Shown piece by piece: positions 1 through 17,074 of a stretch of DNA of 64,000 nt. Origin of the DNA: Escherichia coli. GTDB lineage: Bacteria; Pseudomonadota; Gammaproteobacteria; Enterobacterales; Enterobacteriaceae. The stretch lies in NCBI RefSeq assembly GCF_030384885.1, contig NZ_CP128613.1. One strand, written 5' to 3'. The first letter of the stretch is position 1. The number at the start of each line of letters is the position of its first letter. The position numbers and the translations under genes are program-made. The notes below the pieces were generated by a model. It was given only the letters and a program-made list of their open reading frames with translations, was not told the DNA's origin and did no database searches.

Positions 1-1979
1 ATATCATCCAGAACAGCGGTGCCGCTCTCCAGACGAGCACGGCTAACGGTATTGAAATCAGCGGTACTCACCAGTACGGCACCTTTTCCATTGCCGGAAA
101 TTTAGCGACCAATGCGTTGCTGGAAAATGGCGGTAATTTATTGGTATTAGCAGGTACCGAAGCTCGCGATTCCACGGTTGGCAACGGTGGGGCAATGCAA
201 AACCTGGGTCAGGACTTCGCCACAAAGGTTAATTCCGGTGGGCAATATACCCTTGGTCGGTCAAAAGATGAGTTTCAGGCTCTGGCCCGGGCAGAAGATC
301 TACAGGTCGCTGGCGGGACGGCAATCGTCTACGCAGGTACGCTGGCGGATGCATCGGTCAGTGGCGCGACAGGAAGCCTGTCGTTAATGACGCCACGGGA
401 TAATGTTACGCCAGTTAAACTTGAAGGGGTGGTCCGGATTACCGATAGCGCGACATTAACTATCGGAAATGGCGTCGATACGACGCTTGCCGACCTGACG
501 GCTGCCAGCCGGGGCAGTGTCTGGCTTAACAGCAATAATTCCTGTGCAGGCACCAGCAACTGCGAATATAGAGTAAACAGTTTGCTCCTCAACGACGGTG
601 ATGTTTATTTATCAGCACAAACAGCAGCGCCTGCCACAACTAACGGTATCTACAATACGCTGACCACCAGTGAACTTTCCGGCAGCGGTAATTTCTACCT
701 GCATACCAACGTTGCAGGCTCCCGGGGCGATCAACTGGTCGTCAACAACAACGCCACTGGCAATTTTAAAATCTTTGTTCAGGATACCGGCGTCAGCCCT
801 CAGTCTGACGACGCGATGACGCTGGTGAAAACAGGGGGAGGGGATGCTTCGTTTACGCTGGGTAATACCGGCGGTTTCGTTGATCTTGGGACCTATGAGT
901 ATGTCCTGAAAAGCGACGGCAACAGCAACTGGAACCTGACCAATGATGTCAAACCCAACCCGGATCCCAACCCAAATCCGAAACCGGATCCAAAACCAGA
1001 CCCAAAACCGGATCCGAAACCAGACCCGACTCCCGATCCAACGCCGACACCCGTCCCGGAGAAACGCATCACGCCTTCTACGGCAGCCGTACTCAATATG
1101 GCAGCAACATTACCGTTGGTCTTTGATGCTGAGCTAAACAGTATTCGCGAGCGGTTGAACATAATGAAAGCGAGTCCACACAACAATAATGTCTGGGGGA
1201 CGACGTATAACACCCGTAATAATGTCACCACCGATGCGGGTGCCGGGTTTGAGCAGACGCTGACCGGAATGACGGTGGGGATCGATAGCCGTAATGATAT
1301 TCCTGAGGGGATTGCGACGCTGGGCGCTTTTATGGGTTATTCCCATTCACATATCGGTTTTGATCGTGGAGGACATGGCAGTGTGGGCAGTTATTCTCTG
1401 GGGGGCTATGTCAGCTGGGAACATGAAAGTGGTTTCTATCTGGACGGTATCGTGAAGCTGAACCGCTTTGAAAGTAACGTAGCCGGTAAAATGAGCAGCG
1501 GTGGAGCCGCCAACGGCAGTTATCGCAGCAACGGGCTGGGTGGTCATCTTGAAACCGGGATGCGATTTACCGATGGTAACTGGAACCTGACGCCGTATGC
1601 ATCGTTAACGGGGTTCACCGCTGATAACCCCGAATATCATTTATCCAATGGTATGGAATCGAAATCAGTCGATACCCGCAGTATATATCGTGAACTGGGC
1701 GCAACGCTGAGTTACAACATGCGTCTGGGGAACGGCATGGAAGTTGAGCCGTGGCTGAAGGCGGCTGTGCGCAAAGAATTTGTCGATGATAACCGGGTGA
1801 AAGTGAATAATGACGGTAATTTTGTCAATGATTTGTCGGGCAGACGTGGAATATACCAGGCAGGTATTAAAGCCTCATTCAGCAGTTCGTTAAGCGGGCA
1901 TCTCGGGGTAGGGTATAGCAATGGTGCTGGTTTGGAATCCCCGTGGAACGCGGTGGCTGGTGTGAACTGGTCGTTCTGA
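1..1979 (+). CDS. AIDA-I/Ag43-type autotransporter adhesin, C-terminal part (5' end lies outside the window)
   Basis: Frame is open from position 3 with no upstream stop; Gly/Thr/Asn-rich passenger repeats, a Pro-rich linker (PNPNPKPDPKPDPKPDPTPDP), and a C-terminal beta-barrel domain ending in NWSF (aromatic terminal residue typical of autotransporters). Confidence 0.8.
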   Translation, partial: IIQNSGAALQTSTANGIEISGTHQYGTFSIAGNLATNALLENGGNLLVLAGTEARDSTVGNGGAMQNLGQDFATKVNSGGQYTLGRSKDEFQALARAEDLQVAGGTAIVYAGTLADASVSGATGSLSLMTPRDNVTPVKLEGVVRITDSATLTIGNGVDTTLADLTAASRGSVWLNSNNSCAGTSNCEYRVNSLLLNDGDVYLSAQTAAPATTNGIYNTLTTSELSGSGNFYLHTNVAGSRGDQLVVNNNATGNFKIFVQDTGVSPQSDDAMTLVKTGGGDASFTLGNTGGFVDLGTYEYVLKSDGNSNWNLTNDVKPNPDPNPNPKPDPKPDPKPDPKPDPTPDPTPTPVPEKRITPSTAAVLNMAATLPLVFDAELNSIRERLNIMKASPHNNNVWGTTYNTRNNVTTDAGAGFEQTLTGMTVGIDSRNDIPEGIATLGAFMGYSHSHIGFDRGGHGSVGSYSLGGYVSWEHESGFYLDGIVKLNRFESNVAGKMSSGGAANGSYRSNGLGGHLETGMRFTDGNWNLTPYASLTGFTADNPEYHLSNGMESKSVDTRSIYRELGATLSYNMRLGNGMEVEPWLKAAVRKEFVDDNRVKVNNDGNFVNDLSGRRGIYQAGIKASFSSSLSGHLGVGYSNGAGLESPWNAVAGVNWSF

Positions 1980-1991
1980 CCATCAACGAAA

Positions 1992-2016
1992 AAGCCCACA
2001 TCTGTGGGCTTTCATA
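1992..2016 (+). terminator. Rho-independent terminator downstream of autotransporter gene
   Basis: Hairpin gcccaca-tct-gtgggc followed by a short T-rich tract. Confidence 0.45.
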
Positions 2017-2139
2017 TCACCAGGAGCCGCGGCTCCTTTGCGTATCCTTTTATGTCTCCTCACCGTCTGGTCGGTGTCTTGCTGAGACTTCTAACTTCCT
2101 GTTTTTGTTGGTGTTGTCCTTACACCGTCCAATCATGAT

Positions 2140-2183
2140 TGGTGGGCTGGCGGGAGTTGAACCCGCGTCCGAAATTCCTACAT
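2140..2183. repeat. Direct repeat of the ssrA 3' end (att site of the ssrA-integrated island)
   Basis: tggtgggctggcgggagttgaacccgcgtccgaaattcctacat matches the terminal 44 nt of ssrA at 16498-16541 with one mismatch. Confidence 0.85.
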
Positions 2184-2310
2184 ACTAATAATATATCTTT
2201 AAAATCAAAATATTCTATTATTTATCAATGTATTATGTTTATGTGGTGTTAAGGGGTTTATATGGGTTTTAGTTCTCTGCCGCCAAAATGCCGCCAAAAA
2301 AATTGAATGG

Positions 2311-2336
2311 TAAAACGCCAGTTCGTTGAACTGGCG
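2311..2336 (-). terminator. Rho-independent terminator of the dcd-like/thyX-like operon
   Basis: Perfect 9-bp stem cgccagttc/gaactggcg with 3-nt loop, followed on the minus strand by a T run; lies just 3' of the thyX-like stop. Confidence 0.6.
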
Positions 2337-2346
2337 AGATCTTGTC

Positions 2347-3114
2347 TTATTGTTTTATTATCTTAACGTGCGCCGTTCCTCCATTGACTTTTTCGAAATC
2401 TTGGAACAAGGCAGGGGCATCTTGAGTTACAATATCGTAAAGTTTTTCTGAAACTGTTCTCATTTCATAGTCACCCTGTATTGCTCCTCTCATTTCGAAG
2501 AAGTGTCGAATTGCGCGAGCATTTGCTGTGACGATTATTTTTGTCTCGGTTGCATTAGGCAATATAGAGCGAGAAGCGCTTCTTAAGGCCCGCATTTTTT
2601 CTTTTTTGTTCTCATACGATTGGTTTTCACGGATTTTTTTCAAGGATTGCTTATAAAAATCCAGACTACTTTCAATATGTTGGCACCATGACTTAAACAA
2701 TTCTGGGTCATTTTTTACTTCTATAGGGGCTACGAATTCAGCATCGGATTCATCATGATACTGTTGGGATAACTGGCTATATGAAAAACCAGCTCTATGC
2801 CGAACTAGCTGGTGTGTAAATGCACGAGATACCCCAGTAATTAAAAAGGTCCAGTTCAAATGTTCTAAGACACTTTCATGCCCTTGAATAATTAAATTGT
2901 TGATATATTGACTTGTAGTCCGTGGAGACTGCTTATCCTCTCCAAAAGACATATAACATAGCCTGCCAGCGGCCTCTACCAGAAGCTCAGCTTCGGTCGC
3001 CTGCCCTTTGCGAACCCATTGCAATGATGATGTGTTTAAAAAATCATCAAAAACATTACTTTCAAATGAAGGGTGTGATATGCATTTTACTGATAAATCA
3101 GAGATTTTTATCAT
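2347..3114 (-). CDS. ThyX-like flavin-dependent thymidylate synthase homolog (divergent)
   Basis: 255 aa. Contains EHLNWTF...HQLVRHRAGFSYSQLSQQY, matching the ThyX signature (RHR followed by a conserved Ser) as recalled from Thermotoga ThyX, plus an N-terminal AAGRLCYMSF block. It has a one-residue insertion after RHR and Gln where the SxRY Arg is expected. Start codon lies 2 nt after the upstream gene's stop; SD gggag. Confidence 0.7.
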   Translation of the reverse strand: MIKISDLSVKCISHPSFESNVFDDFLNTSSLQWVRKGQATEAELLVEAAGRLCYMSFGEDKQSPRTTSQYINNLIIQGHESVLEHLNWTFLITGVSRAFTHQLVRHRAGFSYSQLSQQYHDESDAEFVAPIEVKNDPELFKSWCQHIESSLDFYKQSLKKIRENQSYENKKEKMRALRSASRSILPNATETKIIVTANARAIRHFFEMRGAIQGDYEMRTVSEKLYDIVTQDAPALFQDFEKVNGGTAHVKIIKQ

Positions 3115-3116
3115 TT

Positions 3117-3902
3117 TTACTCCCGTATAGCTTTTGGGGTGCTTACTTTAGCATCAACCTTTGGTTCGTTTGATTTAGCATTTTTTAGTAATTCAACGGT
3201 GCTTTTTAGGCTATTTATTTCATTTTGTTGAACTTTTATTGTTAATTCAAGATCTTTTGTACTACTGACATTACTGGATACTATTTGAAATAAGAAAGGA
3301 ATTGCTAGGGTTATCAACGTTAGCATTAAGGCTGCTATCGCAATTATAAAGCCAGTTTTTTTCGCAATGATTTTATTGATTTCTTTCGGAAGTCGTTTAT
3401 CAAGTCCTGCAAAATCCTTTCCCATTCTAGAAAGTTGATCATCATCCAATTTATTTACGATTTTTCCTTGGTAACCTTTAGTCGGTATTATTGTTTTAAA
3501 TAATAACATTCGGGCTACTGCTGAATTTTGTGTCAATGAGAATGGTTCTTTTGACATATTTACAAGATATATTGAAATTATGCCATTATATCCAGGGTCA
3601 ATATGCCCTGGATTCGTCATGATAATTCCATTTTTTGATAGTGTGTTTCTTGGAAATATTACACCAGCTAAATTTTTTGCAAGTTGGAATTTTTCATTTA
3701 ACTCTAATATTACAGTTTCCCCTGGCATCAGGATATGGTTGTTACGTGTTTTTTTATTGTCTTGACAGTCTGGTATATGTATTGTTTTTACAGAGAGATC
3801 AATGCTTGCAGATTGAACTTTAAATGTTCCATTTAATACCGTTAATGGATCAAAAATGTTGCCTCGCTGAATTTCATCATTGATTTCTATTTCAGACAGC
3901 AT
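3117..3902 (-). CDS. dCTP deaminase/dUTPase-fold protein with C-terminal transmembrane helix and coiled-coil tail
   Basis: 261 aa. N-terminal ~140 aa carry Dcd-family motifs (SIDLSV; LMPGETVILE; GHIDPGYNGIISIYLVN; LTQNSAVARMLLF), comparable to the E. coli Dcd IDPGW-G region. The C-terminal ~110 aa contain a 22-residue hydrophobic segment (GFIIAIAALMLTLITLAIPFLF) followed by a heptad-like polar stretch. Confidence 0.7.
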   Translation of the reverse strand: MLSEIEINDEIQRGNIFDPLTVLNGTFKVQSASIDLSVKTIHIPDCQDNKKTRNNHILMPGETVILELNEKFQLAKNLAGVIFPRNTLSKNGIIMTNPGHIDPGYNGIISIYLVNMSKEPFSLTQNSAVARMLLFKTIIPTKGYQGKIVNKLDDDQLSRMGKDFAGLDKRLPKEINKIIAKKTGFIIAIAALMLTLITLAIPFLFQIVSSNVSSTKDLELTIKVQQNEINSLKSTVELLKNAKSNEPKVDAKVSTPKAIRE

Positions 3903-3928: not shown

Positions 3929-4942
3929 TTATAAATTAGCCAGAGGGTTTTTTATTACTGCATCTTCAAGATGCTCTGGGGAAAAATGTGCATAAATCAT
4001 AGTCATTTTTATATCAGAGTGGCCTAAAATATCTCGTAAAACCAAAATATTACCACCATTCATCATAAAATGGCTGGCGAATGTATGGCGCAGAACGTGA
4101 GTGCATTGGCCCTCTGGTAACTCAATGTCAGCTCGCTTTACTGCTCGTTCAAAGGCTTTTCTGCAAGGAGTGAATAACTTCCCTCTGTTCTTAGGGAGTT
4201 CGTCATACAGATCCTGAGATATCGGCACGGTACGGTTTTTCTTGCCCTTAGTCTTGGTATAGGTGATCCGGTATTTCGATAACTGATGGCCCTGCAGATT
4301 TTCGGCTTCACTCCAGCGCGCGCCGGTGGCCAGGCATATTTTTGTAATTAAAAGTAGACTGGGGCTTTGAGAATCAGCACAGGCATCCAGCAGACGTTTA
4401 ATTTCTTCCGGGGTCAGGAACGACAGTTCACCCTCAGCAATTTTAAATGTTGGCAGCCCGGCAAGCGGATTGGGGGCTGACCAGTGGCCCAACTTTTTCA
4501 GTGTGCCAAAAACAGATGATAGGTTGCGCTGTTCAAGGTTTACAGTGCGGGGCTTAACGGGCGACATAAGCGTGCCCTCTTCATTTCGCACTTCACCTTT
4601 TAGCCGCGCTTCTCGGTATTTAGTAAAATCACCGGCTGTCAGCTCTGAGGCGATGGGATCGCCTAGACCATTACAGATAATTCTAAGTTTCGCCATGAGG
4701 CGCTTGGGGTCTGCGAGTGTTTGACCATACAGGGAATACCACTGCTCAATTAATTCTGATAGGTGTCGCCGATCTTCCTTTTCCCCCAGCCATGGCTTTT
4801 TGTTCACTTCTTCCATTGTGAAGCTTTCAAAAGCAATGGCTTCGCCTTTCGTAGCAAATTGCTTACGCACGCGCTTGCCATTGCGTCCATGGGGATAGCA
4901 CTCGCACAACCATTTACCGTTTGGCTGTTTTCTGACAGTCAT
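3929..4942 (-). CDS. int: Phage integrase, tyrosine recombinase (P2/186-type)
   Basis: 337 aa. Catalytic residues in conserved context: ATGARWSE (Arg), HVLRHTF (His-x-x-Arg), MIYAHF (Tyr). Directly downstream of the cI-like gene as in the coliphage 186 lysogeny operon. Confidence 0.85.
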   Translation of the reverse strand: MTVRKQPNGKWLCECYPHGRNGKRVRKQFATKGEAIAFESFTMEEVNKKPWLGEKEDRRHLSELIEQWYSLYGQTLADPKRLMAKLRIICNGLGDPIASELTAGDFTKYREARLKGEVRNEEGTLMSPVKPRTVNLEQRNLSSVFGTLKKLGHWSAPNPLAGLPTFKIAEGELSFLTPEEIKRLLDACADSQSPSLLLITKICLATGARWSEAENLQGHQLSKYRITYTKTKGKKNRTVPISQDLYDELPKNRGKLFTPCRKAFERAVKRADIELPEGQCTHVLRHTFASHFMMNGGNILVLRDILGHSDIKMTMIYAHFSPEHLEDAVIKNPLANL

Positions 4943-4944
4943 GT

Positions 4945-5577
4945 TTAGATACTCTTTATTACTTTGACTGCACGCCCAATAACTTCCACATCATCAGTAG
5001 AGCACTCGAAAGACGCTTCATCTTGATTTACTACAATCTTATTGCCGGGAATCCGCATGATTTTTGCAACAATAATCATTCCATCAATATTGATAAGCCA
5101 GAATCCATTGCTGACCTGTTTAATTGATTTATCGATGAGATAACAATTAGTAGGGGTTTCTAAGAACATCAATTCTTCATAATCTGCAGGTAATATGCTG
5201 TGGTCTAGGAAAATCTCTTCATCAATACTGAGTTGTCCATTCTCCAGGGTTCCTTTAGGAATAGCTGGAGTTATGAGTTTGGATAACGGTTTAATTGCTT
5301 GTTTGTTCTCATTATGAGAACTTTTCTCAGGCTCAGCTCCTCCTTTCATGCTTCCCTGTCCTGTAGCTAACCAAAGCAACGAAACACCGGTTTCTAGTGC
5401 GCACTGAATTATCCAGTCAGCAGGAAAGCTGTCACGTAACACTCTGTTTGCCATAGTGCTTTTTGAGACATTCAGGTGCTCGCTTAATGCCTGCTTAGTT
5501 GTGAATCCATAAGCCTCAAGCAGCCTTTCAATAGCTGCCTTACCTCCCGTATCGGAACCCATTCTGATGTTTAACAT
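4945..5577 (-). CDS. cI: Phage CI-type repressor (186 cI-like)
   Basis: N-terminal HTH region (LEAYGF...CALETGVSLLWLATGQG) resembles the coliphage 186 CI N-terminal domain; divergent from the apl-like gene. Confidence 0.65.
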   Translation of the reverse strand: MLNIRMGSDTGGKAAIERLLEAYGFTTKQALSEHLNVSKSTMANRVLRDSFPADWIIQCALETGVSLLWLATGQGSMKGGAEPEKSSHNENKQAIKPLSKLITPAIPKGTLENGQLSIDEEIFLDHSILPADYEELMFLETPTNCYLIDKSIKQVSNGFWLINIDGMIIVAKIMRIPGNKIVVNQDEASFECSTDDVEVIGRAVKVIKSI

Positions 5578-5698
5578 TGGTGATCTCCATTTGACAATCT
5601 TGAATCAAGATCGTAATGTCTTCATGTCTCTTGATGTGAGAGTTTAAGAGACGGGCTAAAACGAACTAACACGCACACAAAGTAAGAGATACTGCACT

Positions 5699-5941
5699 AT
5701 GAGTACTGATATTTCAATTCGTGTACCAAAAGAGATGGCTACGCCTGCAGAGTTCGCAGAGTGGGAGGGTATTTCCCGCGGCTCTGTTTACCAAAAAATT
5801 CACCATGGTCAACTTGCTAAGTACATGGTCAAGAAAGAAAAAAACAAAGGCCGCGTAAGCCTGCGTTATCTGATGTACAAAACCGATCAGGTCCGTGAAT
5901 CCCTCGGTCATTCCAACTTCCGCGTCATTGTTGGTAAGTAA
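5699..5941 (+). CDS. Apl/Cox-like small DNA-binding protein (excisionase/early repressor)
   Basis: 80-aa basic protein, first gene of the rightward early operon divergent from cI, by synteny with 186 apl / P2 cox. Confidence 0.5.
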   Translation: MSTDISIRVPKEMATPAEFAEWEGISRGSVYQKIHHGQLAKYMVKKEKNKGRVSLRYLMYKTDQVRESLGHSNFRVIVGK

Positions 5942-5973
5942 GTTCAATTATGGGAACTTTCTAAGGGGGCACC

Positions 5974-6483
5974 ATGTTTGATTACAAGATTTCCAAACAT
6001 CCGCATTTCGATGAAGCCTGTAGGGCTTTTGCACTGCGCCACAACCTGGTGCAACTGGCAGAACGTGCAGGCATGAATGTGCAGATTCTGCGGAACAAGC
6101 TGAACCCAGCTCAACCTCATTTATTAACTGCACCAGAAATCTGGTTGCTTACCGATCTGACTGAAGATTCAACGCTGGTAGATGGTTTTCTGGCTCAGAT
6201 TCACTGCCTGCCATGTGTACCGATTAATGAGGTGGCAAAAGAGAAACTGCCACATTACGTCATGAGTGCAACCGCAGAGATCGGGCGTGTCGCGGCAGGT
6301 GCGGTTTCTGGCGATGTAAAAACCAGTGCAGGCCGTCGTGATGCGATCAGCAGCATTAACTCTGTTACACGACTGATGGCGCTGGCTGCTGTTTCATTGC
6401 AGGCCCGTTTACAGGCTAATCCTGCGATGGCGAGTGCGGTTGATACCGTGACTGGCCTCGGTGCTTCATTCGGTTTGCTGTGA
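5974..6483 (+). CDS. cII: CII-like lysogeny establishment regulator (186-type)
   Basis: 169 aa, positioned after the apl-like gene; size and position match 186 CII as recalled. Confidence 0.5.
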
Positions 6484-6490
6484 GGTGCTT

Positions 6491-6787
6491 ATGCTGATGA
6501 AAGAACCATCATTTGCATCGCTCCTGGTAAAACAAAGTCCGGCAATGCACTACGGTCACGGCTGGATCATGGGTGAGGATGGTAAACGCTGGCATCCGTA
6601 CCGTTCACAAGATGAATTGCTGTCTGAATTGACCACGAGGAAACGGAGAAAGTCCAAATGTATGCGGCAGAAAATAAAGTGGTTTATCACTTTCGTTACA
6701 GAGGGGAGAATTATTCAGTACCTGAAGATGATTTGCTCTGTTGCTATCCGTCGTTGTCGGGCGATGGTAGCTACTTTTTCACGCTAA
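6491..6787 (+). CDS. Hypothetical prophage early protein
   Basis: ORF with SD gaggtg 4 nt upstream of ATG at 6491; overlaps the next ORF out of frame, so one of the two may be spurious. Confidence 0.3.
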   Translation: MLMKEPSFASLLVKQSPAMHYGHGWIMGEDGKRWHPYRSQDELLSELTTRKRRKSKCMRQKIKWFITFVTEGRIIQYLKMICSVAIRRCRAMVATFSR

Positions 6788-6882
6788 AGGATGGAACCTT
6801 TATACGTGGTGAAAAAGTACAAGAAGTGATGCGTATAAAGACATCACCTCTTGAACGTTATCGGCGAAATATTTATCGGTAA
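6658..6882 (+). CDS. Hypothetical prophage early protein
   Basis: 74-aa ORF with SD ggag upstream. Confidence 0.35.
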   Translation: MYAAENKVVYHFRYRGENYSVPEDDLLCCYPSLSGDGSYFFTLKDGTFIRGEKVQEVMRIKTSPLERYRRNIYR

Positions 6883-7121
6883 CGATCTATCAGTGTCTGT
6901 ATCAGATGAGTGAATTCTTGTTGTTTAACCGAACCTAAAGGAAGTTTGTTTAATTCTTCGCGGAGGAGCTCAAAAAATGCTGATTGATTTGCTGAGTCAG
7001 TTCGAAATAAGGAGTGGATCAGACCTGAAACAAGAATTCGTTGAACAGCAACCTCATCGCGAAGACTGGAGATCTCGTTTTCAAGTTGCTCTATACGCTC
7101 TCTTTCAACCGGGTTCAACAT
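6873..7121 (-). CDS. Hypothetical small coiled-coil protein, antisense to the early operon
   Basis: 82-aa ORF with heptad-like ERIEQLENEISSLRDEVAVQR; its orientation is opposite to the surrounding early genes. Confidence 0.3.
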   Translation of the reverse strand: MLNPVERERIEQLENEISSLRDEVAVQRILVSGLIHSLFRTDSANQSAFFELLREELNKLPLGSVKQQEFTHLIQTLIDRYR

Positions 7122-7202
7122 TGATGATTCCTTCTAGCTATCAATATGTTGGTAATGGATCATATCAAAAATTTTTTAGTAGATGTGTTGTGGGATGCAT
7201 AA

Positions 7203-7544
7203 ATGGCTATTGAAGGCACTGCGGCGACTGTTCCATTAAGCCCCGGTGAACGCCTGAATGGACTTAATCACATTGCGGAGTTAAGGGCGAAAGTTTTTGG
7301 CCTGAATATTGAGTCAGAGCTTGAGCGGTTTATTAAAGATATGCGTGATTCACGGGATATTAATAGCGAACAAAATAAACGGGCACTGGCTGCCATATTC
7401 TTTATGGCAAAAATTCCAGCTGAACGTCATAGCATCAGCATTAATGAGCTGACCACTGACGAAAAGCGGGAGTTGATTAAAGCAATGAATCATTTTCGTG
7501 CAGTGGTGAGCTTATTTCCCAGACGGCTAACCATGCCGAATTAA
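7203..7544 (+). CDS. Hypothetical prophage early protein
   Basis: 113-aa ORF in the early operon. Confidence 0.4.
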   Translation: MAIEGTAATVPLSPGERLNGLNHIAELRAKVFGLNIESELERFIKDMRDSRDINSEQNKRALAAIFFMAKIPAERHSISINELTTDEKRELIKAMNHFRAVVSLFPRRLTMPN

Positions 7545-7611
7545 CCAACTAATGAAATTAATGGCGTAAACCCGCCGGGCATCCCTTTATCTAAATTCAG
7601 GAGAATTGATT

Positions 7612-7845
7612 ATGCGTAATATTGAAACCCTCTCGACCAAAACCGGACCGGATGACGCAGGGCTTAATATTTTACTGACAGAGGCTCGTCTGGAAGAACG
7701 CCGGGCAAGGGCTGAAGCAATGGCAGCTCGCCTTGATAGCCTGGCGTGTCATATCACATCCCGCCAGCTAACCCACGTCGAAGCGGCAGAACTGCTTCGT
7801 GTGACTGCTGAAGCAATCCAGAACGAAGCGCAGGAGATCCACTGA
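7612..7845 (+). CDS. Hypothetical prophage early protein
   Basis: ATG at 7612 preceded by SD aggaga; 77 aa. Confidence 0.4.
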   Translation: MRNIETLSTKTGPDDAGLNILLTEARLEERRARAEAMAARLDSLACHITSRQLTHVEAAELLRVTAEAIQNEAQEIH

Positions 7846-8072
7846 TGGCTGATGCAATGGATCTCGTACAGCAGCGCGTTGAAGAAGAACGCCAACGCCA
7901 TATCCGTGCTGCCCGTGCCAAAACGCCGGGCGTGTCCCGCGTGCTTTGCATTGAGTGTGAAGCGCCAATTCCGCCAGCACGCCGCCGTGCCATTCCGGGT
8001 GTGCAGCTTTGCATTACCTGTCAGGAAATCGCAGAGCTGAAAGGCAAACATTACAACGGAGGTGCTGTATGA
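7845..8072 (+). CDS. TraR/DksA-family C4 zinc-finger protein (phage)
   Basis: CIECEAPIPPARRRAIPGVQLCITC: two CxxC pairs with the spacing typical of TraR/DksA zinc fingers, common in P2/186-like early regions. Confidence 0.65.
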   Translation: MADAMDLVQQRVEEERQRHIRAARAKTPGVSRVLCIECEAPIPPARRRAIPGVQLCITCQEIAELKGKHYNGGAV

Positions 8073-8926
8073 GCACCATCCTGAAATGGGCGGGAAATAA
8101 AACTGCCATAATGTCCGAACTGAAAAAACATCTTCCTGCTGGCCCGCGACTGGTTGAACCTTTCGCGGGTTCCTGTGCTGTGATGATGGAGACGGATTAT
8201 CCCAGCTATCTGGTTGCGGATATTAATCCTGATTTAATCAACCTCTATAAAAAGGTTGCCGCTGATTGTGAATCGTTTATATCTCGCGCCAGAGTTTTAT
8301 TTGAGATCGCAAACAGGGAGGTGGCTTATTACAACATAAGGCAGGAGTTTAATTACTCAACTGAAATTACTGATTTCATGAAAGCGGTATATTTCCTGTA
8401 TCTCAATCGTCACGGTTACCGTGGTTTATGTCGCTATAACAAGAGCGGGCATTTCAACATTCCCTACGGTAATTATAAAAATCCGTATTTCCCTGAAAAA
8501 GAAATTCGCGCATTTGCAGAAAAGGCCCAGCGAGCAACGTTTATCTGCGCCAGCTTTGATGAAACGCTGGCGATGTTGAAGGCGGGGGATGTGGTGTATT
8601 GCGATCCGCCGTATGACGGTACGTTTTCCGGCTATCACACTGACGGCTTCACTGAAGATGACCAGTATCACCTGGCATCTGTTCTTGAACATCGGTCATC
8701 AGAAGGACATCCGGTCATTGTTTCTAACAGTGACACATCCCTGATCCGTTCGCTGTATCGCAATTTTACTCACCACTACATCAAGGCAAAACGCAGCATC
8801 GGTGTGGCAGCTGGCGAGGGTAAATCAGCAACAGAAATCATTGCTGTTTCCGGGCCGCGCTGCTGGGTGGGATTTGATTATTCGCGTGGCGTGGATAGTT
8901 CTGCCGTGTACGGAGTACGTGCATGA
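8069..8926 (+). CDS. dam: DNA adenine methyltransferase (Dam-like, phage-encoded)
   Basis: N-terminal [11 protein letters not shown]...EPFAGS (AdoMet-binding motif) and the catalytic DPPY motif (VYCDPPYDG); start overlaps the stop of the upstream ORF. Confidence 0.8.
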
Positions 8927-11337
8927 GTCATGCCGATATGAACAACTGCTGCGGCTTTAACGAAGCTGCCGCATCGTTCTCATGGAACAGCCCGAAAAAG
9001 GCCATTAACCCTTATCTGGACCCGGCGGAAGTTGCGCCGGTTTCTGCGCTTTCAAACCTGATCACTCTGTACGCTACTGATAACGAGCAGGAACAACTGC
9101 GCCGCGAGGCACTGAGTGATCAGGTCTGGGAGCGTTATTTCTTTAATGAATCCCGTGATCCTGTCCAACGCGAAATGGAGCAGGATAAGCTCATTAGCCG
9201 GGCAAAGATGGCGCATGAGCAGCAGCGTTTTAATCCAGACATGGTCATTCTGACTGACGTCAACGCCCAGCCTTCCCATATCAGCAAGCCGCTGATGCAA
9301 CGTATTGAATATTTCAGCAGCCTGGGCAGGCCAAAGGCTTATTCCCGCTATTTGCGTGAGACGATTAAGCCATGTCTGGAACGACTGGAGCATGTACGCG
9401 ACAGCCAGCTATCTGCATCTTTTCGTTTTATGGCAAGCCATGAAGGGCTGGACGGTCTGCTGATCCTGCCTGAAATGAGTCAGGATCAGGTGAAACGCCT
9501 GTCTACCCTTGTCGCTGCGCATATGAGCATGTGTCTTGATGCCGCTTGTGGTGATTTGTACGCCTCCGATGATGTTAAGCCAGAAGAAATCCGCAAGACA
9601 TGGGAAAAGGTGGCTGCAGAAACCCTGCGACTGGATGTCATACCGCCTGCGTTTGAGCAACTCCGCCGGAAAAGAAACCGCCGCAAACCTGTGCCTTATG
9701 AACTCATTCCGGGTTCGCTGGCGCGTATGCTGTGCGCCGACTGGTGGTATCGGAAATTATGGAAGATACGTTGCGAATGGCGGGAAGAGCAGTTGCGTGC
9801 TGTCTGCCTGGTCAGCAAAAAAGCATCTCCCTATGTCAGCTATGAAGCCGTGATGCATAAACGTGAGCAGCGCCGTAAGTCGCTGGAGTTTTTCCGTTCT
9901 CATGAACTGGTGAACGAAGACGGCGACACGCTGAACATGGAGGATGTGGTAAACACCAGCAGCAGCAACCCGGCGCATCGCCGCAACGAGATGATGGCCT
10001 GTGTTAAAGGCCTAGAGCTTATCGCGGAAATGCGTGGTGACTGCGCCGTTTTCTACACCATCACCTGTCCGTCACGTTTCCATTCCACGCTAAATAACGG
10101 CAGGCCAAACCCGACCTGGACCAACGCGACAGTAAGACAAAGCAGCGATTATCTGGTCGGCATGTTTGCTGCATTTCGTAAGGCTATGCACAAAGCCGGG
10201 TTGCGCTGGTATGGCGTGCGGGTGGCTGAGCCGCATCATGACGGCACAGTTCACTGGCACCTGTTGTGTTTCATGCGCAAAAAAGACCGCCGCGCCATTA
10301 CTGCATTGTTGCGTAAGTTTGCCATCCGTGAAGACCGCGAGGAGCTGGGCAATAACACGGGGCCACGCTTTAAGTCTGAGCTGATAAACCCGCGCAAAGG
10401 AACGCCGACAAGCTACATTGCGAAATATATCAGTAAGAATATTGACGGGCGTGGTCTGGCTGGCGAGATCAGTAAGGAAACGGGTAAATCCCTGCGTGAT
10501 AACGCTGAATACGTTAATGCCTGGGCGTCTCTGCATCGTGTTCAGCAATTCCGCTTCTTTGGCATTCCGGGGCGTCAGGCTTACCGTGAACTGCGATTGC
10601 TGGCTGGTCAGGCGGCAAGGCAACAGGGTGACAAAAAAGCAGGTGCGCCGGTACTGGATAACCCGCGCCTTGATGCCATCCTGGCTGCTGCTGATGCTGG
10701 TTGTTTTGCCTCCTACATCATGAAGCAGGGCGGCGTACTGGTTCCCCGCAAATATCACCTCATCAGAACCGCTTATGAAATCAACGAAGAGCCGACCGCC
10801 TATGGCGATCACGGTATTCGTATTTATGGCATCTGGTCACCCATTGCAGAGGGCAAGATCTGCACTCATGCAGTGAAGTGGAAAATGGTTCGTAAGGCCG
10901 TTGACGTTCAGGAGGCGGCAGCCGACCAGGGCGCTTGCGCCCCTTGGACTCGTGGCAATAACTGTCCCCTTGCTGAAAATTTGAACCAACAGGAGAAAGA
11001 TAAATCAGCTGATGGGGACACCAGAACGGACATTACCCGCATGGATGACAAGGAGTTGCACGATTACCTGCACAGTATGAGCAAAAAAGAGCGCCGGGAA
11101 CTGGCTGCAAGGTTACGCCAGGTGAAACCGAAACGGCGTAAAGACTACAAACAGCGAATTACAGACCATCAGCGACAGCAGCTCGTCTATGAACTGAAGT
11201 CCAGGGGATTTGATGGCAGTGAGAAAGAAGTCGATTTGCTCCTTCGCGGTGGCAGTATTCCGTCAGGAGCAGGCCTGCGTATTTTCTATCGGAACCAGCG
11301 TCTGAAGGAAGATGATAAGTGGCGGAACCTGTATTAA
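8923..11337 (+). CDS. Phage replication initiation protein (P2 gpA-like rolling-circle endonuclease)
   Basis: 804 aa. HUH-type motif VHWHLLCF and active-site Tyr block [12 protein letters not shown], as in P2/186 gene A. Confidence 0.8.
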
Positions 11338-11429
11338 TTACGCGGGTTAACAATTCGTGCCCTTAATAATACCAGGCATATCAGGCTGATGAATGTAAAA
11401 AAACGTTTTACATCAGTAAGATTATTATA

Positions 11430-11449
11430 TACTGTAAATATAAACAGTG
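11430..11449 (+). promoter_or_regulatory. LexA (SOS) box upstream of small ORF plus dinI-like gene
   Basis: tactgtaaatataaacagtg: CTGT-N8-ACAG with an AT-rich spacer, ~40 nt upstream of the ATG at 11490. Confidence 0.65.
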
Positions 11450-11489
11450 GTTATCTATACAGTATTGCTTTGGTGTCATAGGAGGAAAG

Positions 11490-11678
11490 ATGCAGGACTA
11501 TTTTTTGGAGTCTTTGAAGCTCCAGCGCATTGATTTTTTTCTTAAGCTTGTAGCGGCTAGTGAGTGTAGTGATGAAGAGAAGGGGCTGGCTCTGCAGTGG
11601 GTTTCTGAACTGACAGATGAACTCATGGCAAAAATCAGAACCCACGAATACAACCGCTCAATGGATGTCATCAGCTGA
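11490..11678 (+). CDS. Hypothetical SOS-regulated small protein (possible Tum-like antirepressor position)
   Basis: 62-aa ORF with SD aggagg, immediately downstream of the LexA box; position analogous to 186 tum, but no recognised sequence similarity. Confidence 0.4.
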   Translation: MQDYFLESLKLQRIDFFLKLVAASECSDEEKGLALQWVSELTDELMAKIRTHEYNRSMDVIS

Positions 11679-11688
11679 GGTGACTTTT

Positions 11689-11922
11689 ATGCGCATTGAA
11701 ATAATGATCGATAAAGAGCAGAAGATTAGCCAGTCTACCCTGGACGCCCTTGAATCCGAGCTTTACCGCAATCTGCGCCCCCTGTATCCCAAAACGGTAA
11801 TCCGTATCCGTAAAGGTAGCTCTAACGGTGTGGAACTGACCGGACTGCAACTGGACGAAGAAAGAAAACAAGTGATGAAAATTATGCAGAAGGTGTGGGA
11901 AGACGACAGCTGGCTGCATTGA
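11689..11922 (+). CDS. DinI-family protein
   Basis: 77 aa, MRIEIMIDK...LDALESEL...KVWEDDSWL parallels E. coli DinI (MRIEVTIAK...IDALAGEL...ETWESADDWF). Confidence 0.7.
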   Translation: MRIEIMIDKEQKISQSTLDALESELYRNLRPLYPKTVIRIRKGSSNGVELTGLQLDEERKQVMKIMQKVWEDDSWLH

Positions 11923-12035
11923 TTTTGTCAATAGACGCTTGTTTTTACTAATCAAAAAGGGTTACATATGAGTGAGAGGCGATGTCAATCAGATATCGCC
12001 TTGTTTTTTGTCAAGAAAAGAATAATAGGCTAAAA

Positions 12036-12713
12036 ATGAAAATTAATAATGTAGCGTTACCAATATCTCTTGCTGTAATCCTAACTGGTTGCGTGCCACA
12101 TGCTTCTAACCGAAATATCACTGCTATTGAAGTGGTGAAGCCTGCTATTGGGCAAAGTGCTACCGCCTACATGGGCGATCCCATTATCACATCTGCTACT
12201 GGATTTAAAACGGACGTACTAGAACTTGGTGCGGCTAATGGTGCATTGTCTTCTATCGCTGCTGGTACATATTGCAGTGAGGGGAATGGAATTTACCGCA
12301 ATTATCATAACCCTCAAGCTGTTGCGTTAAAAAATCTCTATGGGCAAATCGGTAACTATGTTGATTATGTTAGTTACGATGCTGCAAAAAATGAGATATC
12401 ACCGCCAAATGGTACTTCTTATACTGCATCAGAAATTTCTATCAAACGTGTTCCTGATGGGCTGTGTCGAGTTAGTAACTCATTGGTTAAGACTATCGAA
12501 TACAATGGAAATGCAGGCGGTGTAATGAAGTTCACCTATCGTGAATTTGCAAACGATATGGCTCGTGCAGCATTTACAACAGATTTTTCTGTAGATTCTA
12601 AGGGAAGTGACGTTATCGCTTACAAAGGTGCCAAGTTCAAAGTGAACAAGGCTGATAACTCGTCTATTTCTTATACAATTATTTCTGGCTTTGACAAGGC
12701 TGTCACGTTCTAG
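12036..12713 (+). CDS. Prophage-encoded lipoprotein (moron)
   Basis: Signal peptide MKINNVALPISLAVILTGC with lipobox LTGC; the remainder is Ser/Thr/Asn-rich with no recognised domain. Confidence 0.6.
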   Translation: MKINNVALPISLAVILTGCVPHASNRNITAIEVVKPAIGQSATAYMGDPIITSATGFKTDVLELGAANGALSSIAAGTYCSEGNGIYRNYHNPQAVALKNLYGQIGNYVDYVSYDAAKNEISPPNGTSYTASEISIKRVPDGLCRVSNSLVKTIEYNGNAGGVMKFTYREFANDMARAAFTTDFSVDSKGSDVIAYKGAKFKVNKADNSSISYTIISGFDKAVTF

Positions 12714-12805
12714 GTTTCACGCTTACTGAGTATGTTACGATTTTGCACATTCTGCATAAACGCGCATGTCTATGCTGCATGAGATCGCATGATCGTTTGA
12801 GGATC

Positions 12806-12833
12806 TTTTGTGTTAAGGCCCGCCAGTTCTGGC
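12806..12833 (+). terminator. Rho-independent terminator after lipoprotein gene
   Basis: GC-rich stem gcccgcc/ggcgggc followed by tttt. Confidence 0.6.
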
Positions 12834-13038
12834 GGGCTTTTGCGTAGATCATGCAGGTGCATGAAAACCACTACATAAAGCGGGCAGGCGTGGCGGGGAT
12901 ACGAGCGCGCGTTATGACAAATAGATGATTAGCCTGATTTATTCACAGCTGTATAAATGATCACCTTGTAATTAGGTAAGTAATGTCTTCTATTATCATT
13001 GATTTGATAGGATTAATCTGTTTTTTGAGGATTAGAGG

Positions 13039-15375: not shown

Positions 15376-15382
15376 TTTTATT

Positions 15383-15413
15383 GCAATTGCCAGTAGCAAC
15401 AATACGGTACTGG
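15383..15413. terminator. Bidirectional hairpin between convergent ATPase and portal-fragment genes
   Basis: 9-bp perfect inverted repeat ttgccagta...tactggcaa. Confidence 0.4.
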
Positions 15414-15424
15414 CAACTAATATT

Positions 15425-15964
15425 TTAGTTAAGCTCATATGGAGAAAATTCTATAAGTTTCTCCCCGAGCCATGCGTTTATTTCCATAAATCGTTTTTGC
15501 AAAGGAATTAATTCATTTATCACAAAAACCTTACTAGCCTTCTCCACATCCCCAAACCCCCCAACATTATTAGGCATTATCCCCATCATTTGCGGCGGCA
15601 CACGGTGTGCCGCCATCATGTCGTCCCGGCTCACGTTCTTGATATTCAGAAACTCATCCTTCGCCGCGACTTCTGACAACGGGATAATCTGAAGCCCGTC
15701 CTTTTTGCCGTTAGGAGAGTACATAAACAGGTTGCGGAAGTTGCCTGGCCCTTTGGCACTTTTCATTGCGTTGCGGAGGTTGTTCACATCTTCTTGGTTC
15801 TGTGCGGCATCGGTCATGTACATGATGAAACCTGCATGGCTGCCGTTGATGTAATACTTACGGCGGAACAGTGTGGCGGACTCGTTGAGCAGGGCTGACG
15901 GGATGGCAGAGAGATAACCTGGCAGGCCGTAGATCTCCTGGTTGATGTCCGGTTCCGCCCTTAA
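15425..15964 (-). pseudogene. Phage portal-like (P2 gpQ-like) gene fragment, 5'-truncated
   Basis: The reading frame stays open upstream of the first Met to ~15964 and then hits a stop with no start. Orientation and position (leftward, after the replication/cargo region) match P2 Q; the family assignment is from synteny and is tentative. Confidence 0.4.
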
Positions 15965-16153
15965 TCATCTCAACCATGCGTTACAGCTCGATCCCCGCTG
16001 TGGCGTGAAAAAAGACAAACAGCAGCTGGAGCGCAGACTGCGCAATGACAGCCGCTGACAGAACGTGCCCCCGCGCACGGGCGGCACGGGGTGGCGAAAG
16101 GCACAGCCACATCAAAACCCCGTCCACCGCCCTTTATTTCAGGAGAAAGCAGC

Positions 16154-16354
16154 ATGAAGTTTGTTGCGCCAGAACAGGCACCGGAACAGGCGGAAATCAT
16201 CAGAAACACGCCGTTCTGGCCTGATGTGGACCTGTCGGAGTTTCGCAGTGTCATGCGCACTGACGGCACGGTGACGCAGCCGCGTTTAAAGCAGGTTGCG
16301 CTGTCGGCAATTTCGGAGGTCAACGCACCGATACGACCATTTGCATTGATGTAA
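16154..16354 (+). pseudogene. Phage head-completion-like (P2 gpL-like) N-terminal fragment
   Basis: 66-aa ORF with SD aggaga; IIRNTPFWPDVD...PRLKQ...ISEVNA resembles my recollection of the P2 gpL N-terminus; truncated relative to ~170 aa. Confidence 0.3.
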
Positions 16355-16497
16355 ACAAAGTGAAGTTCTTCCATGTGAAACCTCTTTGCATGATTTCAAG
16401 ATGGCGACAGGCAAGATGGACGCAAAAGTCTGTCGCCATTTTGCCGCCACTACCAAAGAAAAAGGGGCTACGCTTTCACGTAACCCCTTGATTTATT

Positions 16498-16860: not shown

Positions 16861-17074
16861 AATGTGTAACGGTAAGTATACCAGATTCATGAGTGCCATG
16901 ACCAGCCTCAATGGCGTTATCGTTAAAGATTTAGCACCCGTGTAGCCTGATATTTATTCGATTAAGCAATGGGATGGCAACATTTGGGTCGGATGTGATA
17001 GCCAATAAGATGTTCATTCGCGCCGCCGGAGAGGGTGGCGCGGTGAGGAACTGGTCAATAATTGGAGTGCAGAT

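What the first reader, a model, noticed from the sequence alone, without database searches (positions are those of the whole stretch)
6873..7121. Antisense coiled-coil ORF embedded in the prophage early operon
An 82-aa ORF with heptad-like repeats runs opposite to the surrounding rightward early genes and overlaps the 3' end of one of them. Antisense small genes in phage early regions can be lysogenic-conversion or exclusion factors; it may equally be a chance ORF.
Basis: seen in the sequence. Interest (0 to 1): 0.25.

Follow-up and report, generated by a model that had tools for sequence, protein, structure and literature searches.

The report
Conserved antisense small gene in prophage
The 82-codon reverse-strand ORF is a real, conserved small gene with its own promoter, always paired tail-to-tail with a 74-codon early phage gene, but what the pair does is still unknown.

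Summary
ORF 6873-7121 (-) encodes an 82-aa three-helix protein with a four-heptad N-terminal coiled coil.

**Evidence that it is a gene**
- It matches PHROG family 26925 end to end (E 1.6e-57).
- RefSeq annotates it as hypothetical protein WP_000934004.1, for example in E. coli W.
- Homologues of 79-86 aa occur in Escherichia, Klebsiella, Lelliottia, Pantoea and Pectobacterium prophages.
- dN/dS is 0.12-0.18, and it is the only stop-free frame in all homologues.

**Anatomy**
- An extended -10 promoter (TGaTATGAT, 7167-7159) and a Shine-Dalgarno sequence are conserved.
- A stem-loop that forms better in the minus-strand RNA (6853-6820) follows the stop codon.
- The gene is absent from the closest sequenced phages, so it behaves like a moron.

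**New point:** in all 47 loci examined it sits convergent with, and overlapping, a homologue of the 74-aa early ORF 6658-6882 (PHROG 4312), while other neighbours vary. The 74-aa gene often occurs alone; the 82-aa gene never does.

**Function** is not established: Pfam, PADLOC, NCBIfam, PDB and BFVD give nothing significant. A weak, unproven resemblance to the anti-adaptor IraP exists (hhalign P 6e-4, probability 29%). My best guess (about 0.38) is a protein made by the repressed prophage that binds or restrains the 74-aa early protein.

The parts
6873..7121 (-). 82-aa protein gene (PHROG 26925; RefSeq WP_000934004.1). Acidic three-helix protein with a four-heptad N-terminal coiled coil.
7129..7134 (-). 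Shine-Dalgarno sequence GAAGGA, 7 nt upstream of the ATG at 7121.
   Evidence: Read from the sequence. Purine-rich GGA/GGGG is present at the same place in homologues.
7159..7167 (-). Putative extended -10 promoter TGaTATGAT (TG at 7167-7166, hexamer at 7164-7159), 37 nt upstream of the ATG. No good -35 element.
   Evidence: Homologues keep nTGnTAnnAT at the same distance. The T of TG and hexamer positions A2 and T6 are invariant in 10 of 10 aligned loci, including distant ones. Position confirmed. Inferred from sequence only; transcription was not measured.
7122..7202 (.). AT-rich (31% G+C) divergent intergenic region between the 82-aa gene and DUF5347. It holds the promoter, the 5' UTR and a conserved GATA(G/A)C motif just upstream of the Shine-Dalgarno sequence.
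   Evidence: The length of 76-81 bp is conserved in close homologues.
6820..6853 (-). Stem-loop of 12-13 pairs, 20 nt downstream of the stop and inside the 74-aa ORF, followed in the window by UACUUUUUC. Putative terminator or 3' stabiliser of the 82-aa mRNA.
   Evidence: Terminator-like hit. Present in 9 of 10 aligned loci. Its imperfections are mostly G-U on the minus-strand RNA, which would be A-C mismatches on the plus strand: 11 G-U and 5 mismatches versus 3 and 13. The U-tract is poor in most homologues, and the hairpin also exists in a locus lacking the 82-aa gene.
6658..6882 (+). Partner gene: 74-aa early protein (PHROG 4312). Small five-strand beta domain plus a basic disordered tail. 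Motif CCYPSxxGDGSYFFTLxDGxxFRGExVKEV.
   Evidence: pN/pS is 0.11-0.31 in this frame and 0.94 or more in the other two + frames.
6873..6882 (.). Overlap of the two 3' ends in the quasi-palindrome TTATCGGTAA (perfect TTATCGATAA in L047 and L051), so both proteins end Tyr-Arg-stop.
6658..7202 (.). The whole 545-bp cassette, relative to Fels-2-type phage RE-2010, is inserted exactly at the DUF5347 start codon. The 82-aa module alone is about 6885-7202, relative to phage vB_EcoM-813R9.
   Evidence: Alignment; annotations.

Best explanation
**Shown.** The ORF is a genuine protein-coding gene of 186/P2-like (Peduoviridae) prophages. It is half of a mobile two-gene cassette. The 74-aa gene is read rightward as part of the early lytic operon. 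The 82-aa gene is read leftward from what looks like its own conserved extended -10 promoter. Their 3' ends overlap.

**Inferred.** When CI represses pR in the lysogen, the leftward promoter is unopposed and the 82-aa protein is made. On induction, strong convergent pR transcription and the resulting sense/antisense RNA pairing would shut it down while the 74-aa protein accumulates.

**Inferred, most speculative.** The acidic coiled-coil product has no enzymatic, membrane or DNA-binding features. It most likely works by binding another protein. Its most likely target or partner is the basic-tailed 74-aa early protein. In that case it acts as an optional safety catch or modulator of that early function, not as a free-standing host-directed factor.
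For: **Real gene**
- dN/dS is 0.12-0.18, with changes dominated by third codon positions.
- It is the only stop-free frame in all homologues.
- It matches PHROG 26925 full length, E 1.6e-57.
- A profile search of 1.84 billion representative proteins found 15 hits: 13 full-length proteins of 79-86 aa, one 33-aa truncated copy and one marginal match inside a 2059-aa protein.
- PGAP annotates it.

**Own expression signals**
- The TGnTAnnAT motif, with invariant T, A2 and T6, sits at a fixed distance in 10 of 10 diverse loci.
- A Shine-Dalgarno sequence is present.
- The stem-loop after the stop forms better on the minus-strand RNA.

**Accessory, acquired character**
- It is absent from RE-2010 and 813R9 at precisely defined junctions.
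- G+C is 0.41 in the gene and 0.31 upstream, against 0.44-0.57 for the flanking early genes.
- It is present in 65 of 5426 complete E. coli genomes.

**Coupling to the 74-aa gene**
- In 47 of 47 loci, including members at 28-45% identity, a 74-aa homologue is the convergent neighbour.
- Other neighbours vary. The position relative to fil differs in L015, L019 and L053. About 800 bp is inserted in L047-L050. The promoter-side neighbour differs in L016, L017 and L051.
- The gene was never found in any other context.
- The 74-aa gene occurs alone in sequenced phages. About 520 further E. coli records match only its part of the query.

**Product**
- Three helices, with the heptad coiled coil at residues 4-38.
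- By my own residue count, net charge is about -3 for the 82-aa protein and about +2 for the 74-aa protein, which has a basic tail.
Against: - No expression data were available.
- An AlphaFold2 run on a 74-linker-82 fusion with a paired 12-row alignment gave pTM 0.47 and no gain in pLDDT over the 82-aa protein alone, so it does not support a complex. This test is inconclusive because no PAE or coordinates were returned.
- The strict co-occurrence could be purely physical. The genes overlap, the 82-aa gene's putative terminator lies inside the 74-aa ORF, and mosaic breakpoints fall inside the 74-aa gene at about 6806-6863.
- The 74-aa gene is tolerated alone in the phages and E. coli genomes that lack the 82-aa module, so the 82-aa protein cannot be an essential antidote.
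- The two genes would be expressed mainly in opposite states, which is awkward for a simple binding pair.
Confidence: 0.38

Rival explanations
1. The gene is an independent, host-directed moron. The 82-aa protein made by the repressed prophage binds a host protein. It could be an IraP-like anti-adaptor that sequesters RssB and stabilises RpoS, changing the stress physiology of the lysogen. The link to the 74-aa gene would then be only physical: overlap and a shared terminator.
For: - The moron-like features listed above.
- 3 of 16 family members give weak, in-register hits to Pfam PF10796 Anti-adapt_IraP. The best is E 0.02, residues 14-67 against profile positions 16-66 of 86.
- hhalign of the family against an IraP alignment gives P 6e-4 over 66-70 colinear columns and 28.6% probability.
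- That hhalign score of 23.8 exceeds all 200 column shuffles (mean 10.8, maximum 19.8) and the reversed controls (9.3-9.8).
- The two families have the same size (82-86 aa) and the same clade.
- Both have an N-terminal coiled coil of about 35 residues (PMC4428439).
Against: - The window protein itself has no Pfam hit.
- The best member scores 16 bits, against the gathering cut-off of 23.2.
- The reciprocal scan of six IraP proteins against PHROGs does not find phrog_26925.
- P 6e-4 is not significant once the roughly 24,700-family screen that suggested IraP is taken into account.
- A host-directed moron would be expected in other contexts, but it is never found without the 74-aa gene.
Confidence: 0.25
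2. The pair works like lambda rexAB with ren, or P22 sieB with esc. The 82-aa protein is a prophage-expressed factor that blocks lytic growth of incoming related phages. The 74-aa early protein is the phage's own escape factor. That would explain why the 82-aa gene never occurs without the 74-aa gene, while orphan 74-aa genes, acting as counter-defence, are common.
For: The directional asymmetry of co-occurrence matches effector/immunity logic. The orientation and promoter predict lysogen expression of the 82-aa gene and early lytic expression of the 74-aa gene. The cassette is retained in this cryptic remnant prophage, which lacks all morphogenesis genes.
Against: No hit to any PADLOC defence model. 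The protein has no membrane or enzymatic domain, unlike the exclusion proteins I know of. No experimental data. The same asymmetry arises from simple history, by insertion of the 82-aa module next to a pre-existing 74-aa gene.
Confidence: 0.15
3. The main function is at the RNA or transcription level. Leftward transcription from the promoter interferes with, or is antisense to, the early operon (the 74-aa gene, fil and cII), as with lambda OOP or 186 pR/pL interference. The encoded peptide would be secondary.
For: The convergent arrangement with a 3' overlap, and a conserved minus-strand stem-loop inside the 74-aa ORF. In most homologues the U-tract is weak, so read-through into fil and cII is plausible. 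Convergent-promoter interference is well established in the 186 pR/pL switch, as the NC_001317 annotation notes ('pL ... inhibited by convergent pR promoter').
Against: Strong purifying selection on the amino-acid sequence, with length kept within 79-86 aa down to 28% identity, shows that the protein itself is selected. No Rfam family matches the region.
Confidence: 0.08
4. It is a chance ORF on the antisense strand of an intergenic or early-operon stretch.
For: ORFs of this length arise by chance (about 14 per 40 kb in shuffles).
Against: All the conservation evidence.
Confidence: 0.01

Closest known systems
Phage morons, for example P2 old, tin and fun(Z), and lambda rexAB, bor and lom. These are accessory genes with their own promoter and terminator inserted between conserved phage genes (concept of Juhala/Hendrix; from my own knowledge).
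   Same: Present or absent between otherwise collinear relatives at exact gene junctions. Lower G+C. Own promoter-like and terminator-like signals. An orientation that allows expression from the repressed prophage.
   Different: It lies inside the early lytic operon, not at the known P2 accessory loci (the gpA-gpQ hotspot, PMC9122126). It overlaps an early gene, always travels with it, and has no known phenotype.
Lambda rexAB with ren, and P22 sieB with esc: a prophage-expressed exclusion function plus an early escape function (from my own knowledge).
   Same: One partner is predicted to be expressed in the lysogen and the other early in lytic growth. The lysogen-phase partner never occurs without the other.
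   Different: No sequence or structural similarity. The 82-aa protein is small and soluble. No exclusion was tested.
IraP (PF10796), the RssB anti-adaptor of Enterobacterales.
   Same: 82-86 aa. N-terminal coiled coil of about 35 residues followed by shorter helices. Enterobacterial. Weak colinear profile similarity.
   Different: Below Pfam's threshold. No reciprocal hit. A different genomic context: prophage, against the chromosomal iraP next to phoA. Function untested.
Lambda OOP RNA and 186 pR/pL convergent transcription.
   Same: A leftward transcript beginning downstream of cII and overlapping the 3' end of an early gene. Convergent promoters.
   Different: Here the leftward transcript encodes a protein under purifying selection.
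The phage 186 fil-dhr slot: small non-essential host-takeover genes after cII (NC_001317 annotation).
   Same: The 74/82 cassette occupies the same position after cII and fil. The 74-aa gene is, like dhr, a small early gene.
   Different: The 74-aa protein is not homologous to Dhr. Phage 186 has no antisense gene there.

Membership tests
PHROG 26925 (uncharacterised phage protein family) | Full-length match to the family HMM. | tested here: met
   E 1.6e-57, residues 1-82 against profile positions 1-82 of 82.
Moron (independently transcribed accessory gene of a prophage) | Present in some and absent from closely related phages at the same junction. | tested here: met
   RE-2010 has fil followed directly by DUF5347. 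813R9 has fil, the 74-aa gene, then DUF5347. The window has fil, the 74-aa gene, the 82-aa gene, then DUF5347.
Moron (independently transcribed accessory gene of a prophage) | Own promoter. | tested here: inconclusive
   A conserved extended -10 motif with invariant key positions in 10 of 10 loci. The generic -35/-10 scan found nothing. No transcript data.
Moron (independently transcribed accessory gene of a prophage) | Own terminator. | tested here: inconclusive
   A conserved stem-loop 20 nt after the stop, better formed on the minus-strand RNA. The U-tract is weak in most homologues.
Moron (independently transcribed accessory gene of a prophage) | Base composition different from the neighbours. 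| tested here: met
   G+C 0.41 for the gene and 0.31 upstream, against 0.44-0.57 for the flanking early genes.
Moron (independently transcribed accessory gene of a prophage) | Expressed from the repressed prophage. | not testable with these tools
   Needs strand-specific RNA-seq or a reporter in a lysogen.
IraP anti-adaptor (Pfam PF10796) | Score at or above Pfam's gathering threshold (23.2 bits). | tested here: not met
   The window protein has no hit. The best family member scores 16.0 bits, E 0.02.
IraP anti-adaptor (Pfam PF10796) | Significant profile-profile similarity. | tested here: inconclusive
   hhalign P 6e-4, probability 28.6%, 66-70 colinear columns. None of 200 shuffles reaches that score. 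Not significant at database scale.
IraP anti-adaptor (Pfam PF10796) | Reciprocal recognition (IraP finds the phage family). | tested here: not met
   Six IraP proteins scanned against PHROGs give no hit to phrog_26925.
IraP anti-adaptor (Pfam PF10796) | Binds RssB and stabilises RpoS. | not testable with these tools
   Biochemical or genetic assay needed.
Type II toxin-antitoxin pair (74-aa protein as toxin, 82-aa protein as antitoxin) | Co-directional, co-transcribed two-gene operon. | tested here: not met
   The genes are convergent with overlapping 3' ends.
Type II toxin-antitoxin pair (74-aa protein as toxin, 82-aa protein as antitoxin) | The toxin is not maintained without its antitoxin. 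| tested here: not met
   The 74-aa gene is intact without the 82-aa gene in phages 813R9 and 4LV2017. About 520 E. coli records match only the 74-aa part of the query, though ORF integrity was not checked in them.
Type II toxin-antitoxin pair (74-aa protein as toxin, 82-aa protein as antitoxin) | Similarity to known toxin or antitoxin families. | tested here: not met
   No Pfam, NCBIfam or PADLOC hit for either protein.
Known anti-phage defence systems (PADLOC-DB v2) | Match to a defence-protein HMM. | tested here: not met
   No families at E up to 1 for the 82-aa, 74-aa, DUF5347 or Fil proteins.
Non-coding cis-antisense RNA (OOP-like) | No selection on an encoded peptide. | tested here: not met
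   dN/dS 0.12-0.18 and conserved length. No Rfam match.

The most novel reading that the evidence does not exclude
The convergent 74/82 cassette is a previously unrecognised two-gene phage module in which a lysogen-expressed coiled-coil protein and an early lytic beta-domain protein antagonise each other. One version is a rex/ren-like exclusion-and-escape pair. Another is a distant, phage-borne relative of the anti-adaptor IraP that rewires RssB/RpoS proteolysis in lysogens and is switched off by convergent early transcription on induction.
Probability: 0.2. Interest if true: 0.6.

Novelty: new member of a known kind. Interest (0 to 1): 0.33.

Why it matters
The ORF itself is already in databases as a hypothetical protein, so its existence is not new. 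What this analysis adds is evidence that it is under purifying selection, has conserved expression signals, and is inseparable from a second ORFan gene that NCBI's pipeline does not annotate in the three E. coli records inspected.

That defines a compact, testable two-gene module inside the lysis-lysogeny control region of 186-like prophages. It is carried by about 1% of complete E. coli genomes, including the laboratory strain E. coli W, and is retained in a defective remnant prophage.

If the 82-aa protein is an antagonist of an early host-takeover protein, an exclusion factor, or an IraP-like anti-adaptor, it would be a new small-protein regulator linking prophage state to host physiology. 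If it is only a moron of unknown minor function, it is ordinary.

Tried and rejected
- **Family scans of the 82-aa protein.** Pfam, NCBIfam and PADLOC gave nothing significant.
- **Pfam scan of all 16 family members.** Only scattered coiled-coil noise, plus the IraP lead.
- **PDB sequence profile searches.** Nothing below E 0.09 for either family.
- **tblastn against 50,697 phage records.** No match.
- **Genome-contig scan.** No relative found; the set holds one genome per species. An earlier attempt with the 16-sequence alignment failed because it was too divergent.
- **74-aa protein versus 186 Dhr.** No similarity.
- **Fusion AlphaFold2 as an interaction test.** Inconclusive.
- **Regulatory motifs upstream of the gene.** No LexA box. 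No CII half-sites (ATGTTTG-N13-CAAACAT, which are present at the pE analogue at about 5980-6006). No operator shared with the pR/pL region beyond chance-level 11-mers.
- **Literature.** Searches for the protein accession, and for antisense genes in P2-like early operons, found nothing relevant. The published P2 defence hotspot is a different locus.
- **Rfam.** No family matches the region.

Full report
**Context.** The window carries a 186/P2-like (Peduoviridae) prophage early region.

| Coordinates | Strand | Gene |
|---|---|---|
| 3929-4942 | - | integrase |
| 4945-5577 | - | CI repressor |
| 5699-5941 | + | Apl/Cox-like |
| 5974-6483 | + | CII (PF06892) |
| from 6491 | + | Fil (PF10893) |
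| 6658-6882 | + | 74-aa ORF (phrog_4312) |
| 6873-7121 | - | target ORF |
| 7203-7544 | + | DUF5347 |
| downstream to 11337 | + | DUF2732, TraR/DksA, Dam, replication endonuclease gpA (8923-11337) |

Comparison with the annotated phage 186 genome shows the same order: int, cI, apl, cII, fil. Phage 186 then has dhr and terminator tR1 where the window has the 74/82 pair.

The prophage here is a deletion remnant. After gpA come a DinI/Tum-like gene, an AAA_13 ATPase and a portal fragment, followed by the host ssrA tmRNA and smpB.

It overlaps the end of the 74-aa ORF by 10 nt. The heptad pattern is genuine, with 8 of 10 a/d positions hydrophobic in one register over residues 4-38. AlphaFold2 predicts a long N-terminal helix and two shorter ones (pLDDT 78). 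An 82-codon ORF is not improbable by itself, so the case rests on comparative evidence.

**It is a real gene.**
- The protein matches phrog_26925 over its full length (E 1.6e-57).
- PGAP annotates it as hypothetical protein WP_000934004.1 in E. coli FREC5, 23CRST024 and W. The exact sequence occurs on at least 1000 contigs.
- Homologues at 65-71% identity, all exactly 82 aa, occur in Lelliottia and Klebsiella prophages.
- A profile search of 1.84 billion representative proteins found 15 hits: 13 full-length proteins of 79-86 aa, one 33-aa truncated copy and one marginal match inside a 2059-aa protein. The word-index search named further hosts: Pantoea, Pectobacterium and Pseudescherichia.
- Between the window and the 65-71% homologues, nucleotide identity is only 66-74%, yet substitutions fall mostly on codon position 3 (for example 16/14/50). 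dN/dS is 0.12-0.18.
- This is the only one of six frames free of internal stops in all homologues. The + strand shadow ORF 6977-7213 is not conserved as protein.

**It is an accessory module.** Aligning the region with close relatives shows three architectures (annotations):

| Phage or locus | Gene order |
|---|---|
| RE-2010 | fil, then DUF5347 directly |
| vB_EcoM-813R9 and Klebsiella phage 4LV2017 | fil, 74-aa gene, DUF5347 |
| window | fil, 74-aa gene, antisense 82-aa gene, DUF5347 |

- The junctions are exact. The whole cassette (6658-7202) sits at the DUF5347 start codon. The 82-aa module is about 6885-7202.
- The cassette is AT-richer than its neighbours: 0.40-0.41 in the genes and 0.31 in the upstream spacer, against 0.44-0.57.
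- The 82-aa module occurs in 65 of 5426 complete E. coli genomes, always single-copy and chromosomal.
- It occurs in 33 IMG/VR contigs but in none of 50,697 deposited phage records.

**Expression signals.**
- Upstream of the ATG are a Shine-Dalgarno sequence (GAAGGA, 7134-7129) and, 37 nt upstream, TGATATGAT (7167-7159), which is an extended -10 promoter motif.
- The generic -35/-10 scan missed it because there is no good -35 element.
- The motif recurs at the same distance in all homologues: TGgTATGAT, TGcTATGAT, TGaTATCAT, TGgTATGCT, TGaTAAAAT, and cTTGCATAAT in distant members. The T of TG and hexamer positions A2 and T6 are invariant in a 10-locus alignment whose mean column identity is only 54%.
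- I found no LexA box, no CII half-sites and no operator shared with pR/pL beyond chance. The promoter therefore looks constitutive.
- Twenty nucleotides after the stop, inside the 74-aa ORF, lies a 12-13-pair stem-loop (6853-6820), flagged as terminator-like. It is conserved in 9 of 10 aligned loci.
- The stem-loop's imperfections are mainly G-U pairs on the minus-strand RNA, which would be A-C mismatches on the plus strand: 11 G-U and 5 mismatches against 3 and 13. That points to a structure of the leftward transcript.
- Two caveats apply. The U-tract is weak in most homologues, and the hairpin also exists in a locus without the 82-aa gene. I therefore call it a putative terminator or stabiliser only.

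**The key new finding is an obligate convergent partner.**
- In every one of 47 loci with an 82-aa family gene, the gene whose 3' end meets or overlaps it is a homologue of the window's 74-aa ORF.
- This holds for members at 28-45% identity (L015, L016, L017, L019, L053). In L017 the partner was not called by the gene finder but is present in the sequence.
- Everything else varies. The fil-like sequence lies on the other side of the pair in L015, L019 and L053. About 800 bp separates fil from the pair in L047-L050. The promoter-side neighbour is DUF5347, a 126-aa gene, or a 58-aa gene plus RepB.
- The 74-aa ORF is itself a real gene. pN/pS is 0.11-0.31 in its frame and 0.94 or more in the other two + frames, including the frame that extends Fil to 98 aa. 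AlphaFold2 gives it a five-strand beta domain (pLDDT 82-89) and a disordered basic tail.
- PGAP does not annotate the 74-aa gene in the three E. coli records inspected. It calls a 98-aa Fil or a partial Fil pseudogene instead.
- The 74-aa gene is common without the 82-aa gene. It stands alone in two sequenced phages, and about 520 E. coli records match only its part of the query. The reverse was never seen.
- The two stop codons sit in a quasi-palindrome (TTATCGGTAA; perfect TTATCGATAA in L047 and L051), so both proteins end Tyr-Arg-stop.

**Function by homology or fold: nothing solid.**
- No Pfam, NCBIfam or PADLOC hit.
- No PDB sequence hit below E 0.09.
- No Foldseek hit in PDB or BFVD below E 0.8.

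**The one lead is IraP.**
- Three of 16 family members give weak, in-register hits to PF10796 (best E 0.02, 16 bits against a cut-off of 23.2).
- hhalign of the family against an alignment of 12 IraP proteins gives P 6e-4 and 28.6% probability over 66-70 colinear columns.
- The score of 23.8 exceeds all 200 column-shuffled controls (mean 10.8, maximum 19.8) and the reversed-sequence controls.
- IraP is also about 86 aa with a predicted N-terminal coiled coil at residues 1-35 (PMC4428439).
- Against this, IraP proteins do not find phrog_26925 in a reciprocal scan. The P-value also does not survive correction for the Pfam-wide screen that nominated IraP. I treat it as a lead with roughly the probability HH-suite assigns.

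**Mechanism.**
- Shown: a selected protein-coding gene, conserved promoter-like and terminator-like signals, antisense placement in the pR operon, and obligatory pairing with the 74-aa early gene.
- Inferred: expression from the repressed prophage, and down-regulation on induction by convergent pR transcription. The 186 annotation describes such interference for pR and pL.
- Speculative: the target. Strict one-directional co-occurrence, with the 82-aa gene never seen in another context, argues that its function is tied to the 74-aa protein. The acidic coiled coil and the basic tail are at least compatible with binding.
- The 74-aa gene is tolerated alone, and the genes are convergent. A classical toxin-antitoxin pair is therefore excluded. 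An optional safety catch or modulator is my best guess (0.38).
- A fusion AlphaFold2 run with a paired alignment neither supported nor excluded a complex (pTM 0.47).
- The rivals are a host-directed moron, possibly IraP-like (0.25), a rex/ren-like exclusion-and-escape pair (0.15), and a mainly RNA-level role (0.08).
- The physical overlap of the genes, and mosaic breakpoints inside the 74-aa gene, mean that co-inheritance alone does not prove functional coupling.

**Verdict.** It is an annotated but uncharacterised small prophage gene. It is best filed as a moron-like accessory gene that forms a conserved convergent two-gene cassette. It is of modest interest now, and would be of higher interest if the pairing or the IraP resemblance proves functional.

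Noticed in passing
window 6491-6882: Annotation conflict. PGAP calls Fil either as a 98-aa protein or as a 'partial, missing C-terminus' pseudogene, and does not call the 74-aa ORF 6658-6882 in the three E. coli records inspected. Substitution patterns show the 74-aa frame is the selected one (pN/pS 0.11-0.31). The Fil extension beyond about residue 52 is unselected read-through (0.94 or more).
   Followed up: yes
window 3929-17557: The prophage is a deletion remnant of about 12.5 kb: int to gpA, a DinI/Tum-like gene (11617-11922), a 243-aa ORF, an AAA_13 ATPase (13039-15375) in the gpA-gpQ defence hotspot, and a portal fragment (15425-15823, minus strand). The host tmRNA ssrA (16498-16860) and smpB (17075-17557) follow. 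There are no morphogenesis genes.
   Followed up: partly
window 117-3902: Left of the integrase lie a ThyX/Thy1-like gene (2347-3114, minus strand) and a dCTP-deaminase/dUTPase-like gene (3117-3902, minus strand). This could be a nucleotide-depletion type defence pair. An autotransporter adhesin fragment lies at 117-1979.
   Followed up: no
window 6873-6882; L047 and L051: The stop codons of the convergent 74-aa and 82-aa genes lie in a 10-nt quasi-palindrome (TTATCGGTAA; perfect TTATCGATAA in some relatives), so both proteins end Tyr-Arg-stop. In L006 and L013 the overlap is only TTAA.
   Followed up: partly
L008-L012 (Klebsiella-type loci), fil codon 15: fil carries a premature TAA stop at codon 15 in these prophages, while the 74/82 cassette downstream is intact.
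   Followed up: no
window 7135-7145 and homologues: A conserved GATA(G/A)C / TGATAGC motif lies in the predicted 5' UTR about 22 nt downstream of the -10 element. It forms a direct repeat with the yTGrTA of the promoter. Its function is unknown.
   Followed up: no
L006, L008-L012, L055 (E. coli W), L015: Relatives carry extra genes between cI and int (a KAP-family NTPase or a 493-aa protein) and OLD-like/AAA ATPases or GmrSD beyond gpA. The cI-int junction therefore also looks like a variable accessory slot.
   Followed up: no
L055 (E. coli W, NC_017635.1 963923-964171): The laboratory strain E. coli W carries the identical 82-aa protein (ECW_RS04665), as far as the 12-kb stretch inspected shows in a more complete early region. 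That makes experiments straightforward.
   Followed up: partly
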